This document shows, piece after piece, positions 24,769 through 27,871 of a stretch of DNA of 64,000 nt. The stretch is from assembly GCA_020849475.1 (NCBI GenBank), contig JADLGE010000071.1, forward strand, positions 18,753 to 82,752, read 5' to 3'. The translations under genes and the position numbers were made by a program. Numbering within the stretch: the first letter of the stretch is position 1; each line of letters begins with the position of its first letter. This DNA comes from Gammaproteobacteria bacterium (GTDB lineage: Bacteria > Pseudomonadota > Gammaproteobacteria > Ga0077536). The notes beneath the pieces are model-generated. The model was not told where the DNA came from and ran no database searches. It saw only the letters and a program-made list of their open reading frames with translations.

Positions 24769-26022
24769 ATGTTCCGCGTTGTCGATTGCATTGCCCTCCA
24801 ACATGACCGCTCGCTATTGGTCATTGCCGGGCTCATCTGTCTGTTTGGTTCGGTGGCGACGGTGTTGTCCGCGCGCCGCCTCGATTCCCGTCACCACGCC
24901 TGGCGCTGGCGCGCGCTGGTCGCGGTGTGCGTGTCGTCCACGGTGTGGGCCACGCATTTCCTCGCCATGCTGGCCTACCGGCCGACCTTGTCGGTGGCGT
25001 TCGATCTGCCACAGACCGTGCTCTCGTATTTCATTGGTCTCATGGTGATGGGGCCGGCCCTGGTCAGCGCACGCTGCGTGCAGGGCCTGTGGTTACGGAT
25101 GCTGTGCGGCGTGGTGTTCGGCGCGGGCGTGGCGCTCATGCACTACCTTGGCATGGCGGCGGTGCAGGTCGCGGGCTTGCTGAGCTACGACGCGCCGCAG
25201 GTGGCGCTGTCGGTGATCTTGAGTTGCGCCGGCGGCGCCATGACGGTCAGCGCCCTGTTCGGGCCGCGCACCGCGAGCCGACGCCTGCTCGCCATCTTCG
25301 CGCTGGCGCTGACCATCCTCGCGCTGCATTTCACCGGCATGAGCGCTGTGAGCGTCAGTCTGAATTCCTTGCTGGCGCACACTGACAGCGCGCTGTCACG
25401 CCAGCTGCTGGTGATTGAAACCTGCATGGCCGCCGCCGCCGTGCTCGGCATCACACTGCTCGGCGCGCAGTTCGACGAGCACATGGCGCGCGCCCTGCGT
25501 GAAGAAGCGGCGCGTTTCCGCACGCTCGCCGACGGAGCCTTCGAAGGTCTCATCATCCACCGCGACGATACCATCGTCGATTACAACGCGGTGGCCTGCA
25601 CCCTGCTCGGCCACAGCACCTTGAACATGCCGTTCGCGTCGTTATTTCCCGATGGCCTCTTGCATGAGAGCGCGAACACCGCGGTCAAGACCGCCATGCA
25701 GCATCGCGATGGTCATCACATCGCGGTCGAGATCAATCGTCGGCCGATACACACCCGCACCCATGAATGGGCCGAGCTGGTGGCAATACGCGACCTCACC
25801 GCACAGCAGGCGGTCGAAGGCAAACTCGCCGAGGCCATGGAAAACCTCGGCGCCCTGCGCGCGCTGATCCCGATGTGCGCCTGGTGCAAACGCGTGCGCG
25901 ATGATGAAGGCTACTGGAACGCCGTCGATCACTATCTCAAGGAAGTGACCGGCAATGAGATCACTCATGGCATCTGCCCGACCTGCAGCGACAAGGAATT
26001 GGCGAGGCTCGGCCGTGGCTAG
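24769..26022 (+). CDS. Membrane MHYT-domain sensor with cytoplasmic PAS domain and C-terminal CxxC-x29-(H)GxCPxC module
   Basis: Three MHYT-like helices (ATHFLAML, MHYLGMAA, LHFTGMSA); PAS-like region; C-terminus IPMCAWCKRVRDDEGYWNAVDHYLKEVTGNEITHGICPTCSDKE; no GGDEF/EAL/HisKA/HTH. Confidence 0.8.
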   Translation: MFRVVDCIALQHDRSLLVIAGLICLFGSVATVLSARRLDSRHHAWRWRALVAVCVSSTVWATHFLAMLAYRPTLSVAFDLPQTVLSYFIGLMVMGPALVSARCVQGLWLRMLCGVVFGAGVALMHYLGMAAVQVAGLLSYDAPQVALSVILSCAGGAMTVSALFGPRTASRRLLAIFALALTILALHFTGMSAVSVSLNSLLAHTDSALSRQLLVIETCMAAAAVLGITLLGAQFDEHMARALREEAARFRTLADGAFEGLIIHRDDTIVDYNAVACTLLGHSTLNMPFASLFPDGLLHESANTAVKTAMQHRDGHHIAVEINRRPIHTRTHEWAELVAIRDLTAQQAVEGKLAEAMENLGALRALIPMCAWCKRVRDDEGYWNAVDHYLKEVTGNEITHGICPTCSDKELARLGRG

Positions 26023-26425
26023 CCCGGTGGTGCAGCACTCTGCGGACGGCGCTGAGTTCGGCTATGTCATCGACCGGCAGGCCGGTGTGCTGCGACAGAC
26101 CTGGCGCGGCACCGTGAGCAGTGGCGACGTCGGTGATTTCTGGAGGCAGCTGTTCCACGATCACCACACCCTCGCCCTCAGCCGGCACCTGGATGACCTG
26201 CGCGACTGCCGCTTCATGTTTTCCGGCAACGAGTGGCTGGAACTGGTGAAGAACTTCCTGGCGCCGGCGCCGCCCCATGCACGCTGGAAGGCGGCGTTCG
26301 TGGTCAACAGCTCGGAGATGTACGGGGTGCTGCGGCAGTTCATCGCCTATGCGGGGGATTTGGTCGAGGGCGAGATTTTTTATGAGATGGAGAGTGCGGA
26401 GGCGTGGTTGAGAGGGGAAGATTGA
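26015..26425 (+). CDS. Hypothetical protein translationally coupled to the MHYT sensor
   Basis: ORF in +1 frame relative to sensor; GTG at 26015 overlaps sensor stop (26020-26022) by 8 nt; ~136 aa, no recognised domain. Confidence 0.5.
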
Positions 26426-26475
26426 GTTGCCCGACAGGGTTGATTCGCCCGCGCTTGGGCGCGTGCTTTTAGGTA

Positions 26476-26552
26476 TGGCGCGCCCGACAGGATTCGAACC
26501 TGTGACCTCTGCCTTCGGAGGGCAGCACTCTATCCAGCTGAGCTACGGGCGC
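26476..26552 (-). tRNA. tRNA-Arg (anticodon CCG)
   Basis: Reverse complement gives GCGCCCGTAGCTCAGCTGGATAGAGTGCTGCCCTCCGAAGGCAGAGGTCACAGGTTCGAATCCTGTCGGGCGCGCCA; cloverleaf with 7-bp acceptor stem, T-loop GGTTCGAATCC, anticodon loop CT-CCG-AA, encoded CCA. Confidence 0.9.
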
Positions 26553-26845
26553 TTTGTGAGGCGTAAAGTATAACGGCATTCAGTGCTGTCGGTCGGCCCG
26601 ACAGGATTGATTCGCCCGCGCTCGAGCGCGTGCTCACCCCTGCGGGGCGTCGGCGCGCTGCGCCTCCGTCCAACATCGCTGCGCGATGTTGTCGAACCTG
26701 AGACCTCTGCCTTCGCCGGAAAGCACTCTATCGGGCTTGAGCGACGGGCGCTTTGTGAGGCGTGAAGTACAACGGCATTCAGTGCTGTCGGTCGGCCCGA
26801 CAGGATTGATTCGCCCACGCCTGGGCGCGTGCTCACCCCTGACCA
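26553..26845. repeat. ~190-bp tandem duplication downstream of tRNA-Arg containing a decayed tRNA copy
   Basis: Unit gggcgctttgtgaggcgtRaagtaYaacggcattcagtgctgtcggtcggcccgacaggattgattcgccc...gcgcgtgctcacccctg occurs at 26545-26640 and 26744-26842; a third partial copy lies at 26428-26470. Confidence 0.85.
26688..26751 (-). pseudogene. Degenerate tRNA-Arg fragment (pseudo-tRNA)
   Basis: gttgtcgaacctgagacctctgccttcgccggaaagcactctatcgggcttgagcgacgggcgc aligns with the functional tRNA at 26493-26552 but anticodon arm and D-arm are disrupted. Confidence 0.55.
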
Positions 26846-26986
26846 TGTATCCGCCACCCACACCCAATCCCCTGAGAAGCCTAGTGAATCAGTTCGATTT
26901 GGCTATAATGCCGGCGGCCCGCGTTCGGCAGGAATGCGCGGCATAAGAACAAATCTGGCGCTTGCCTCTTCCTTCGAGAGACCAAA

Positions 26987-27871
26987 ATGAGCAATCAACA
27001 AGACGACTCGGTGTTCGTTAGAAATTTCTCCCTGGTGCTGCTGTTCCTGGTGGTGGTGGGCTTGACGGCCTTCGTATCGGCCAAGTTCGTCAACGGCGGC
27101 GCGCAGGATGAATACGGACCGAGAGGCAATGAAGCGGCCAATGTCGCGCCGGTAGGCGCGGTCAACACCGGCGGCGACGCGGTCGCCGTCGAAGGCGCCA
27201 AGACCGGCGCCGAAGTCGCCAGCACCGCCGCGCCGGCGGCCGCTGCGAGCAGCGACCCGGGCAAATCCACCTACGACAGCGTGTGCTTCGCCTGCCATGC
27301 GCAGGGCATCGCCGGCGCGCCCAAGTACGGCGATGTGGCAGCCTGGGAAAGCCGCGTCGCGCAGGGCCATGACACCCTGGTGCAGCACGCCCTCGCCGGC
27401 TTCACCGGCCAGGCCGGCATGATGCCGGCACGCGGCGGCAACCCGACCCTGACCGACGCCCAGGTCACGGCCGCGGTGGAATACATGATGGCCGCCGTCG
27501 GTGGCAAGAAGGATGGCGCCACAGCGCCGGCCGCGGCCCCCGCCGCCGAGCCTGCCGCCGCCGCACCAGCGGCTGCACCGGCCGCCGATGCCGCCGCAGC
27601 GCCGGCCGTGGCCGATGCGGGCAAGGGCAAGGCCACTTACGATGCGGTGTGCTTCGTGTGCCATACCCCGGGCGCCGCCGGCGCACCGAAGTTCGGCGAC
27701 AAGGCCGCCTGGGAGCCGCGCATCGCCAAGGGCATCGACGTCCTGCATGGCAGCGCCATCAACGGCTTCATGGGCAGCGCCGGCATGATGCCGCCCAAGG
27801 GTGGCCGTCCGGATCTGGCAGACGCGGATATCAAGGCCGCGGTCGACTACATGGTCGAAGCCGCCAAGTAA
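26987..27871 (+). CDS. Membrane-anchored diheme c-type cytochrome (cytochrome c5-like)
   Basis: N-terminal TM anchor, two CxxCH motifs (CFACH, CFVCH), Ala/Pro-rich linkers. Confidence 0.85.
   Translation: MSNQQDDSVFVRNFSLVLLFLVVVGLTAFVSAKFVNGGAQDEYGPRGNEAANVAPVGAVNTGGDAVAVEGAKTGAEVASTAAPAAAASSDPGKSTYDSVCFACHAQGIAGAPKYGDVAAWESRVAQGHDTLVQHALAGFTGQAGMMPARGGNPTLTDAQVTAAVEYMMAAVGGKKDGATAPAAAPAAEPAAAAPAAAPAADAAAAPAVADAGKGKATYDAVCFVCHTPGAAGAPKFGDKAAWEPRIAKGIDVLHGSAINGFMGSAGMMPPKGGRPDLADADIKAAVDYMVEAAK

What the first reader, a model, noticed from the sequence alone, without database searches (positions are those of the whole stretch)
26428..26845. tRNA-Arg(CCG) followed by a decaying tandem duplicate with a pseudo-tRNA
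A ~190-bp unit (tRNA plus ~100-bp spacer) is duplicated directly downstream of the intact tRNA. The second tRNA copy (26688-26751) has a wrecked anticodon arm. A third partial spacer copy lies upstream (26428-26470). The spacer begins like the tRNA 3' end (cccgacaggatt...) and contains the perfect palindrome cgcgctcgagcgcg. This could be a tRNA gene array in decay or a remnant of repeated site-specific integration and excision. No integrase is present and the flanking genes are core.
Basis: seen in the sequence. Interest (0 to 1): 0.5.

Follow-up and report, generated by a model that had tools for sequence, protein, structure and literature searches.

The report
RtT-like repeat splitting a pseudo-tRNA
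The "spacer" next to this arginine tRNA gene is a conserved four-hairpin element sitting inside the T-loop of a duplicated, dead tRNA copy, and it is a distant relative of the poorly understood RtT repeats that follow tRNA genes in E. coli, so it is a divergent member of a known family and not random decay or an integration scar.

Summary
tRNA-Arg(CCG) lies at 26476-26552 on the minus strand, so the 199-bp duplicate is upstream of the gene, not downstream. The "spacer" has two parts. One is a duplicated 43-nt tRNA leader. The other is an 84-nt element, E (26609-26692), inserted exactly in the T-loop of the pseudo-tRNA. The body of that pseudo-tRNA is 26693-26751 and its 3' piece is 26596-26608. 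Truncated E copies lie at 26429-26467 and 26795-26841.

E folds into four hairpins. It occurs at this same tRNA in six related lineages (and decayed in a seventh) of uncultured Gammaproteobacteria, with copy number from 0 to 5. It is far better conserved than the adjacent leader and shows compensatory stem changes.

A covariance model built from these copies hits tRNA-Ser-linked repeats in Klebsiella at 40 bits. Rfam scores those Klebsiella repeats above threshold as RtT RNA (RF00391), the family of the E. coli tyrT repeats. Those repeats also place a hairpin core between GGTTCGA and AATCC...CCA.

The window copy itself fails the Rfam threshold and carries a full tRNA body instead of the RtT 5' module. 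Verdict: a new variant of a known kind. Its function is unknown, as for RtT. No integrase or integration-type junctions were found.

The parts
26429..26467 (-). Downstream remnant of an RtT-like unit. It holds a 13-nt copy of the tRNA 3' segment (26429-26441, 1 mismatch) and the last hairpin of E (SL4, within 26442-26466). On the + strand, hairpin plus TTTT looks like a terminator just after the stop of ORF 25955-26425.
   Evidence: Repeat family D2 at 92%. Model R1 scores it 43.8 bits, E 5e-13. Terminator-like sites at 26446-26465 on the + strand.
26476..26552 (-). Intact tRNA-Arg(CCG), the only tRNA in the window.
   Evidence: ARAGORN. Rfam RF00005 at 69.6 bits. 100% identical to the tRNA of L001, L002, L004 and L025.
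26553..26595 (-). Leader/promoter segment p1 upstream of the intact tRNA. It has a -10-like TATACT (26567-26572 on the minus strand).
   Evidence: Read from the sequence. Relatives have TATAAT at the same place. The consensus scan found no full sigma-70 match.
26596..26608 (-). a': the 3' piece of the split pseudo-tRNA (sense AATCCTGTCGGGC). It comprises the T-loop end, the T-stem 3' strand and 5 nt of the acceptor 3' strand.
   Evidence: 13/13 identical to 26482-26494 of the intact tRNA (D4). Joining it to 26693-26751 in silico gives a cloverleaf that ARAGORN accepts at relaxed threshold; the L001 homologue is accepted at default threshold.
26609..26692 (-). E: the 84-nt RtT-like core inserted in the T-loop. 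Hairpins in + strand coordinates: SL4 26614-26633 (contains the cgcgctcgagcgcg palindrome), SL3 26637-26647 (CCCC-TGC-GGGG), SL2 26652-26664, SL1 26671-26691 (CAACATCGC-TGC-GCGATGTTG).
   Evidence: The four-hairpin fold is predicted in all lineages, z -3.2 to -6.2 on the tRNA-sense strand. Covariation: 96.1% of cells paired, 7 pairs changed on both sides, 0 of 500 shuffles reach this. R1 hits the Klebsiella RtT units at 40.3 and 39.6 bits. RF02902 gives 21.9 bits over its full length.
26693..26751 (-). b*: the 5' body of the pseudo-tRNA (acceptor 5' strand through TTCGA of the T-loop), with a mutated D-loop and anticodon arm.
   Evidence: 50 of 59 aligned columns identical to 26495-26552. The altered anticodon arm CTTTCCGGCGAAGGCAG is shared with the pseudo-tRNAs of L001 and L002.
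26752..26794 (-). p2: duplicated copy of the leader. Its -10-like hexamer has changed from TATACT to TGTACT.
   Evidence: Part of repeat D1 at 93%. Sequence read.
26795..26841 (-). Third a' copy (26795-26807) plus a truncated E (SL4 and half of SL3, 26808-26841). It abuts the unrelated promoter region of the cytochrome c5 gene.
   Evidence: Repeat families D1 and D2. R1 scores it 37.9 bits, E 6e-11.

Best explanation
The locus is a tRNA-Arg(CCG) gene flanked by RtT-like tRNA-linked repeats.

The conserved module, written in tRNA sense, is GGTTCGA + an ~80-nt core of four hairpins (E) + AATCC and the rest of the tRNA 3' end. In other words, the core sits between the two halves of a T-loop. In this window the one complete module is carried by a full-length but dead copy of the tRNA, which lies with its own leader copy directly upstream of the live gene. 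Two truncated modules flank the array.

Shown:
- the anatomy;
- conservation and covariation of the hairpins;
- variable copy number between relatives;
- homology to Klebsiella and E. coli repeats that Rfam and RefSeq call RtT.

Inferred:
- The units expand, contract and homogenise by unequal homologous recombination or gene conversion between repeats. This is what I recall being described for tyrT/tyrV in E. coli.
- The module is transcribed on the tRNA strand, together with or next to the tRNA, and trimmed by tRNA-processing enzymes into a stable structured RNA, as reported for RtT.
- The pseudo-tRNA::E fusion arose in one of two ways. Either the core entered a duplicated tRNA's T-loop, or a deletion between the GGTTCGA of an upstream tRNA copy and the GGTTCGA of an adjacent RtT unit fused the two.

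What the RNA does is unknown here, as it is for RtT. Modulation of the stringent response has been suggested in E. coli.
For: 1. E is bounded exactly by the T-loop halves (GGATT|E|CGAACC on the + strand). Removing it restores a cloverleaf.
2. The same element at the same tRNA occurs in L001, L002, L004, L025 and L020, and in decayed form in L031. These genomes have cytochrome c5 67-91% identical to the window's.
3. a'+E is 96.9/93.9/84.7/76.5% identical to the window, against 74/59/63/55% for the adjacent leader. Most differences are loop changes or compensatory stem changes.
4. Covariation: 96.1% of cells paired, 7 pairs with changes on both sides, 0 of 500 shuffles reach this, and slid controls pair only 30-52%.
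5. Model R1, built only from this clade and L010, hits the two Klebsiella tRNA-Ser-linked units at 40.3 and 39.6 bits (E about 1e-11). Plain tRNA T-loops score only about 12.8 bits.
6. Those Klebsiella units score 46.6 and 46.0 bits on RF00391 RtT, whose gathering score is 45. Their E. coli homologues are annotated 'RtT sRNA'.
7. The E. coli tyrT RtT units (133-137 bits) have the same layout: GGTTCGA, then a hairpin core with GNA triloops, then AATCC...CCA, which equals the last 19 nt of tRNA-Tyr.
8. The downstream units in L020 and L001 also carry the RtT 5' motif GATGAGRACC. RF00391 aligns the L020 units over its full length at 20.4 and 18.7 bits.
9. Concerted evolution: the two leader copies p are identical within L001 and 93% identical within the window, but only 74% identical between the two genomes.
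10. RtT members next to tRNA-Asn and tRNA-Lys genes are expressed in Actinobacillus pleuropneumoniae (PMC4986893).
Against: - RF00391 gives no hit on the window unit even at E<=10 in a 191-nt search.
- R1 scores the E. coli tyrT units at only about 15 bits, which is noise level. The link to classical RtT therefore runs through the Klebsiella intermediates.
- The window unit lacks the RtT 5' module (GGGGAAGG-AUGAGAA...) and has a tRNA body in its place.
- There is no expression data. The pseudo-unit's -10 has decayed to TGTACT, and no sigma-70 consensus match was found.
- The element is absent from several close relatives (L007, L022, L023, L028, L033) and decayed in L031. It is therefore dispensable.
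- The covariation counts come from an alignment fitted to the model and from few independent lineages.
Confidence: 0.75

Rival explanations
1. Plain tandem duplication of the tRNA gene and its flank, with one copy decaying. On this view the spacer has no identity of its own.
For: 199-nt period, 90% identity between units, and a mutated D-loop and anticodon arm in the second copy. Duplication and unequal crossing-over are certainly part of the history.
Against: This does not explain several results:
- an 84-nt block interrupts the T-loop exactly;
- the block is much better conserved than the neighbouring leader;
- its stems covary;
- the same block occurs without a tRNA body downstream of tRNAs in L001, L020, L010 and Klebsiella;
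- it matches RtT-type repeats.
Confidence: 0.08
2. Scars (attL/attR remnants) of repeated site-specific integration and excision of genomic islands or phages at the tRNA T-loop.
For: - The tRNA 3' fragments are repeated.
- The DNA on the 3' side of the tRNA differs in almost every relative, which marks an integration or rearrangement hotspot.
- L010's array abuts an AT-rich polysaccharide gene cluster.
- T-loop attB sites are known, for example for phage Ms6 (PMC1762012, listed).
Against: - No integrase in the ORFs tested around the locus in the window or L010.
- The two junctions (GGTTCGA|CAACATC and GCGAATC|AATCC) do not share the overlap sequence required of tyrosine or serine recombinase products (my reading).
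- The element was not found in viral contigs, phage records or plasmid records.
- Hairpin covariation is not expected of att arms.
- Pseudo-tRNA copies lie on the conserved, upstream side of the gene.
Confidence: 0.05
3. E is a non-autonomous mobile element of the hairpin/ssDNA type (like REP/BIME or IS200/IS605 miniatures). On this view it inserts specifically into T-loop DNA and is mobilised in trans by an HUH/Y1 enzyme, and RtT repeats are its copies.
For: - No target-site duplication and no terminal inverted repeats; the insertion point is precise to within 1 nt.
- Homologous cores sit in T-loop contexts belonging to four different tRNA identities: Arg, a Glu-like 3' end, Ser and Tyr.
- GNA triloops closed by C-G are read on the tRNA-sense strand (my reading).
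- A Y1_Tnp gene lies 2.2 kb from the tRNA in L025.
- One copy (L031) is decaying.
Against: - No Y1 transposase homologue in the window or in the other loci (tblastn).
- No copy away from the tRNA in the 64-kb window.
- Every copy seen lies next to a tRNA gene or, in L010, ends in a tRNA-like 3' segment, so arrays can be explained by local duplication.
- The a'|leader junction is at the same nucleotides in five lineages, which suggests one old event and not repeated insertion.
- Spread between tRNAs could instead use the universal GGTTCGAATCC microhomology.
Confidence: 0.12

Closest known systems
RtT RNA (Rfam RF00391). This covers rttR and the 178-bp repeats of the E. coli tyrT-tyrV locus, and the tRNA-Ser-linked 'RtT sRNA' of E. 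coli and Klebsiella.
   Same: - Tandem ~170-200-nt units on the tRNA strand, next to a tRNA gene (one unit lies between tyrT and tyrV, i.e. just upstream of a tRNA, as here).
- Each unit ends with the 3'-terminal part of the adjacent tRNA, starting at AATCC of the T-loop.
- A multi-hairpin core with GNA triloops follows GGTTCGA.
- A CCC(C)-GNA-GGG(G) hairpin and a GAGU/GAAUC-AAUCC junction are shared.
- R1 hits the Klebsiella members at 40 bits.
   Different: - The window unit is not detected by RF00391.
- The linked tRNA is Arg(CCG).
- The host is an uncultured gammaproteobacterial clade at about 64% GC.
- The 5' module (helix plus AUGAGAA) is replaced by an entire tRNA 5' body, so the unit is a split pseudo-tRNA.
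- The sequences of SL1, SL2 and SL4 differ.
AaHKsRNA22 (Rfam RF02902), a small RNA reported from Aggregatibacter actinomycetemcomitans.
   Same: The model aligns over its full length (1-101), on the tRNA-sense strand, to E in the window, L001 and L020. It shows the same series of four hairpins and the same GCCCC-loop-GGGG-GAG centre.
   Different: Scores are 21.8-24.4 bits against a gathering score of 39.8. I could not check the genomic context of the Aggregatibacter RNA (one search found nothing relevant).
Tandem tRNA gene duplicates that are lost and gained by unequal crossing-over (tyrT/tyrV of E. coli; this is from my own knowledge of the classical su3 literature).
   Same: Repeated units flank the tRNA copies, copy number differs between relatives, and repeats are homogenised within a genome.
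   Different: Here only one tRNA copy is functional, and the other is interrupted in the T-loop.
attL/attR tRNA fragments left by integrases that target the T-loop (for example mycobacteriophage Ms6 in tRNA-Ala, PMC1762012).
   Same: Repeated 3' tRNA fragments that begin in the T-loop, next to a variable region.
   Different: No integrase, no shared overlap sequence at the two junctions, a structured conserved insert, and copies on the 5' side of the gene.

Membership tests
RtT RNA (Rfam RF00391) | Scores at or above the family's gathering threshold (45 bits) with the RF00391 covariance model. | tested here: not met
   Window unit: no RF00391 match at E<=10 in either a 1.5-kb or a 191-nt search, and none at gathering level in the whole window. 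For comparison: L020 units 20.4 and 18.7 bits, Klebsiella units 46.6 and 46.0, E. coli units 133-137.
RtT RNA (Rfam RF00391) | Lies beside a tRNA gene on the same strand, often in tandem units. | tested here: met
   One full and two truncated units flank tRNA-Arg(CCG) on the minus strand. Relatives carry 0-5 units.
RtT RNA (Rfam RF00391) | The unit ends with a copy of the 3'-terminal segment of the adjacent tRNA, starting at AATCC of the T-loop (19 nt in E. coli). | tested here: met
   13 nt (AATCCTGTCGGGC) in the window units (D4). The full 19 nt including CCA are present in the L001 downstream units. E. coli and Klebsiella show the same breakpoint.
RtT RNA (Rfam RF00391) | A multi-hairpin core preceded by GGTTCGA, so that the core sits between T-loop halves. 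| tested here: met
RtT RNA (Rfam RF00391) | A 5' module in which a strand pairs with the tRNA-like 3' end and is followed by AUGAGAA (model positions 15-30). | tested here: not met
   The window unit has a tRNA 5' body (26693-26751) in this place. The motif GATGAGRACC is present in the L001 downstream units, the L020 units and the Klebsiella units.
RtT RNA (Rfam RF00391) | Independent model-based homology to accepted family members. | tested here: met
   R1 (built from this clade and L010) scores the Klebsiella units at 40.3 and 39.6 bits, E about 1e-11, against about 12.8 bits for ordinary tRNA T-loops. The E. coli tyrT units reach only about 15 bits.
RtT RNA (Rfam RF00391) | Transcribed and released from the tRNA operon transcript. 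| not testable with these tools
   No expression data exist for this uncultured lineage. Expression of RtT members is reported in A. pleuropneumoniae (PMC4986893).
AaHKsRNA22 (Rfam RF02902) | Scores at or above the gathering threshold (39.8 bits). | tested here: not met
   21.9 bits (window), 21.8 (L001) and 24.4 (L020), all full length and on the sense strand.
tRNA pseudogene produced by tandem duplication | Recognisable cloverleaf homologous to the neighbouring tRNA but failing tRNA detectors. | tested here: met
   Not called as it stands. With E removed, ARAGORN calls the L001 copy tRNA-Arg(GCG) at default settings and the window and L002 copies only at relaxed threshold. The body is 85% identical to the intact gene.
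Integrase att-site scars at a tRNA | An integrase or island between direct repeats of the tRNA 3' end, with an identical overlap sequence at both junctions. | tested here: not met
   No integrase domains in the ORFs tested. Only 34-186 nt lie between repeats in the window. The junction sequences differ. No match in viral, phage or plasmid collections.
REP/BIME or IS200/IS605-derived miniature elements | A cognate Y1/HUH transposase in the genome and dispersed copies at many loci. | tested here: inconclusive
   No homologue of the L025 Y1_Tnp in the window or in the other loci. No dispersed copy in 64 kb. Whole genomes could not be scanned.

The most novel reading that the evidence does not exclude
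RtT-type cores may be a module that lives specifically in tRNA T-loops and moves between tRNA genes of different identity. Here it is linked to Arg(CCG); elsewhere to Tyr, Ser, Asn, Lys and a Glu-like 3' end. It would move either by recombination at the universal GGTTCGA/AATCC microhomology or through an unidentified enzyme that recognises its hairpins. On this reading the full-length pseudo-tRNA::E of this clade is the primitive state, and the shortened RtT units of enterobacteria derive from it by loss of the D and anticodon arms. That would give RtT RNAs an origin and a propagation mechanism.
Probability: 0.25. Interest if true: 0.6.

Novelty: new variant of a known kind. Interest (0 to 1): 0.38.

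Why it matters
RtT repeats were found in E. coli decades ago and are annotated in thousands of genomes, yet their function and origin remain open.

This locus adds three things:
- The family, or a close relative that Rfam cannot see, extends to an uncultured gammaproteobacterial clade and to tRNA-Arg(CCG).
- The conserved unit is best described as a hairpin core sitting between the two halves of a T-loop.
- A form exists in which the core interrupts an otherwise complete tRNA copy, which is a plausible intermediate between a duplicated tRNA gene and an RtT unit.

In practical terms, such loci will be misread as decaying tRNA arrays or att scars. Model R1 could be used to annotate them.

Tried and rejected
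- Exact-protein look-up of the window's cytochrome c5: not on record.
- Viral-contig scans with the SL1 pattern: 0 hits.
- BLAST of the locus against phages and plasmids: only the tRNA itself matched.
- L010 unit against E. coli genomes and plasmids: no match.
- The genome and metagenome scans were limited to exact matches of one hairpin. They returned mostly chance palindromes (L008, L009, L011, L013-L017, L021), so they undersample diverged copies.
- Tyrosine or serine recombinase product model: rejected, because the two junctions share no overlap sequence.
- Transposon with target-site duplication or terminal inverted repeats: none found by reading the junctions.
- integron attC-like core sites: RYYYAAC is present, but no matching GTTRRRY.
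- Hammerhead-like reading of CGAUGAG: rejected, because the U of CUGAUGA is missing.
- RAYT link: the L025 Y1_Tnp has no homologue in the window or other loci.
- Promoter role for E: no sigma-70 consensus match, and E is G+C-rich hairpins and not UP- or Fis-like.
- G-U versus A-C asymmetry to decide the folded strand: 2 against 2, so inconclusive.
- Literature searches for T-loop insertions or tRNA remnants: nothing relevant.
- The Aggregatibacter sRNA paper gave no context for sRNA22.

Full report
**1. Observation**

ARAGORN finds a single tRNA in the window, tRNA-Arg(CCG) at 26476-26552 on the minus strand. Rfam scores it at 69.6 bits. The repeat finder confirms the tandem duplicate:
- 26539-26642 matches 26738-26841 at 93%.
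- 26494-26539 matches 26692-26737 at 85%.
- The period is 198-199 nt.
- A 39-nt block occurs three times, at 26429, 26596 and 26795.
- The first 13 nt of that block equal 26482-26494 of the tRNA. No shuffle reproduces three matches.

However, because the gene is on the minus strand, the duplicate lies upstream of the tRNA and the copy at 26429 lies downstream.

**2. Anatomy**

Read in the tRNA sense, the order from 26841 down to 26429 is:
- a truncated element plus a';
- leader copy p2;
- the pseudo-tRNA 5' body, ending ...GGTTCGA (26751-26693);
- the 84-nt element E (26692-26609);
- AATCCTGTCGGGC (a', 26608-26596);
- leader p1;
- the intact tRNA;
- 9 nt;
- the last hairpin of E plus a' (26467-26429).

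E therefore sits exactly where the T-loop of the pseudo-tRNA is split: GGATT|E|CGAACC on the + strand, with the position ambiguous by one base. There is no target duplication and there are no terminal inverted repeats.

Removing E in silico restores a cloverleaf. ARAGORN then calls the L001 homologue tRNA-Arg(GCG) at default settings, and the window and L002 copies at relaxed threshold. The "spacer that begins like the tRNA 3' end" is thus the pseudo-tRNA's own 3' end. The palindrome cgcgctcgagcgcg is hairpin SL4 of E.

E folds into four consecutive hairpins in every lineage, with z-scores of -3.2 to -6.2 on the tRNA-sense strand.

**3. Relatives**

Homologues of the adjacent cytochrome c5 led to syntenic contigs of uncultured Gammaproteobacteria. 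A hairpin-pattern scan of metagenomes added L019/L020. All of these contigs have tRNA-Arg(CCG) divergent from cytochrome c5-UvrD-PmbA.

E content varies between them:

| Locus | Cytochrome c5 identity to window | E content |
|---|---|---|
| L001 | 91% | Two E-split (pseudo-)tRNAs upstream; downstream, three units of the form [terminator, 19-nt tRNA 3' end, E, CGAACC..]: one complete, one with an internal deletion in E and one truncated. An IS256-type transposase remnant lies between them. |
| L002 | 88% | One E-split pseudo-tRNA |
| L004 | 84% | E with a decayed tRNA body |
| L031 | 82% | A decayed E |
| L025 | 74% | E plus an abutting partial E |
| L020 | 67% | Two 172-nt units downstream of the tRNA |
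| L007, L022, L023/24, L027, L028-30, L033 | — | None |

The DNA on the 3' side of the tRNA differs in nearly every genome.

The a'|leader junction is at the same nucleotides in five lineages. The odd anticodon arm of the pseudo-tRNA is shared by the window, L001 and L002. The upstream arrangement is therefore old.

Within a genome the leader copies are 93-100% identical, but only 74% identical between the window and L001. This indicates concerted evolution by recombination between units.

**4. Constraint**

Compared with the window, a'+E is 96.9/93.9/84.7/76.5% identical in L001/L002/L004/L025. The adjoining leader is only 74/59/63/55% identical. Differences fall mainly in the loops of SL2 and SL4, or are compensatory:
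- SL1: C-G to U-A in L025.
- SL1: inner pairs swapped in Klebsiella.
- SL2: the whole stem is replaced in L004, L020 and L025.
- SL3: the outer pair is C-G to G-C in L010.
- SL4: C-G to G-C in L025, and A.G to G-C in L020.

On the model-fitted alignment, 96.1% of cells pair and 7 pairs change on both sides. No shuffle out of 500 reaches these values, and slid controls pair only 30-52%. Caveats: there are few independent lineages, and the alignment leans towards the structure. G-U versus A-C counts do not decide which strand folds.

**5. Identity**

A weak BLAST hit of E in a Klebsiella pneumoniae chromosome led to L034. There, two tandem units follow tRNA-Ser(GGA). Each unit consists of a terminator, the last 18 nt of tRNA-Ser, an E-like core, then CGAACCCC..GGTTCTCATC.

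Rfam scores these units as RtT RNA at 46.6 and 46.0 bits, against a gathering score of 45. It scores the four units of the E. coli K-12 tyrT-tyrV locus (rttR/tpr) at 133-137 bits. RefSeq annotates the E. coli homologues of the tRNA-Ser units as 'RtT sRNA'; such homologues are present in 4621 of 5426 genomes.

In E. coli the core also lies between GGTTCGA and AATCC...CCA, which is the last 19 nt of tRNA-Tyr, and it contains GNA-triloop hairpins. The 5' motif GATGAGRACC of RtT is present in the Klebsiella, L020 and L001 downstream units.

I built covariance model R1 from this clade's copies plus L010. Its scores are:
- Klebsiella units: 40.3 and 39.6 bits (E about 1e-11).
- Ordinary tRNA T-loops: about 12.8 bits.
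- E. coli tyrT units: about 15 bits.
- The three window copies: 126.6, 43.8 and 37.9 bits.
- Nothing else in the window above 17.1 bits.

RF00391 itself aligns the L020 units over its full length at 20.4 and 18.7 bits. It does not report the window unit. RF02902 (Aggregatibacter sRNA 22) aligns over its full length to E at 21.8-24.4 bits, below its threshold of 39.8.

L010, a contig from an Enterobacteriaceae metagenome-assembled genome, carries tandem units with an identical SL1, different SL2-SL4 and a tRNA-Glu-like 3' end.

**6. Interpretation**

The element is a divergent relative of the RtT family of tRNA-linked repeats. [quoted passage not shown] Their function is still described as unknown, or as modulation of the stringent response (PMC4986893; bioRxiv 10.1101/2024.07.17.603846). 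The 178-bp tyrT repeat literature (Egan and Landy; Rossi et al.; Altman et al.) I cite from memory only.

What differs here:
- the linked tRNA is Arg(CCG);
- the host clade is different;
- the Rfam threshold is not met;
- the 5' part of the complete unit is an entire tRNA body and not the short RtT 5' module.

Mechanistically, unit number changes by unequal recombination. This is inferred from the concerted evolution and the copy-number variation. The pseudo-tRNA::E fusion can be derived in two ways. Either the core entered a duplicated tRNA's T-loop, or a deletion occurred between the GGTTCGA of an upstream tRNA copy and that of a neighbouring RtT unit. Transcription and processing into an RtT-like RNA is inferred by analogy and was not shown. 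The pseudo-unit's -10 is weakened (TGTACT).

**7. Rivals**

- *Pure decay of a duplicate.* This fails to explain the conservation, the covariation and the cross-genus homology.
- *Integrase scars.* These are not supported: no integrase, junctions that do not match, and no viral, phage or plasmid counterpart.
- *A trans-mobilised hairpin element that targets T-loops.* This is not excluded, because homologous cores occur in T-loop contexts of four different tRNA identities and there is no target duplication. It lacks a transposase, however, and no dispersed copies were seen. I keep it as the most novel reading that the evidence still allows.

**8. Verdict**

But the spacer is a conserved RtT-like structured element, not filler or an att scar. 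This is a new variant of a known, poorly understood kind, of moderate interest.

Noticed in passing
window 26446-26470 (+ strand): The truncated E hairpin downstream of the tRNA is followed by TTTT. On the + strand it forms a terminator-like site 20 nt after the stop codon of ORF 25955-26425. The remnant may have been kept as that gene's terminator.
   Followed up: partly
L007 3719-3760: This close relative has no E. Instead it has a second copy of the tRNA's 5' half, starting in the anticodon loop (CCTTCGGAGGGCAGC...GGGCGC), about 65 nt upstream of the intact tRNA. That is a different breakpoint (anticodon loop, not T-loop) at the same locus.
   Followed up: no
L001 2212-2733 and 2890-2912: An IS256/Mutator-type transposase remnant (Pfam Transposase_mut, E 4.7e-05) and a ~20-nt poly-G run lie between RtT-like units downstream of the tRNA.
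   Followed up: partly
L025 1-373 (- strand): A Y1_Tnp (IS200/RAYT-like) gene lies 2.2 kb from the tRNA-Arg/E locus. No homologue is present in the window or the other loci.
   Followed up: partly
L028 139-2500; L033 501-2500: In two relatives about 2 kb, including a gene of unknown function (494 aa in L033; the corresponding stretch is split into shorter ORFs in L028), lies between the tRNA and the cytochrome c5 gene, on the otherwise conserved side of the tRNA.
   Followed up: no
L027 95-420: An imperfect repeat of a unit containing ...GCCTCGCGACACGCCCATGGATTCCTGCTTTCGCAGGAATGACGG... occurs between the tRNA and cytochrome c5. It looks like a REP-type repeat unrelated to E.
   Followed up: no
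L010 5559-5600: In the Enterobacteriaceae contig, the segment after E contains a tRNA-Glu-like T-arm fragment (TAACAGGGGTTCGAATC) in the opposite orientation to the unit's tRNA 3' end. The array abuts an AT-rich polysaccharide/sulfotransferase gene cluster.
   Followed up: partly
window 26870-26986 and the equivalent stretch in every related locus: The cytochrome c5 upstream region (CCTAGTGAA.CAG..GATTTGGCTATAATGCCGGCGGCCCGCG...TTCCTTCGAGAGA.CAAAATG) is strongly conserved across all relatives. It has a perfect TATAAT and a G+C-rich stretch in the 5' leader that may form a hairpin.
   Followed up: no
window 27184-27231, 27517-27608: Short tandem repeats (periods 21 and 12/24) lie inside the cytochrome c5 coding region, in its very G+C-rich central stretch between the two haem domains.
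   Followed up: no
window 26543-26863 (- strand): A mechanical 106-aa ORF spans the whole repeat array. E. coli annotates a 29-aa 'protamine-like' ORF (tpr) inside its RtT repeat. Whether any peptide is encoded here was not examined.
   Followed up: no
L022 1-70 and 765-835: About 70 nt or more of sequence is directly repeated about 765 nt apart, downstream of the tRNA in this relative. It may mark the ends of an inserted element.
   Followed up: no
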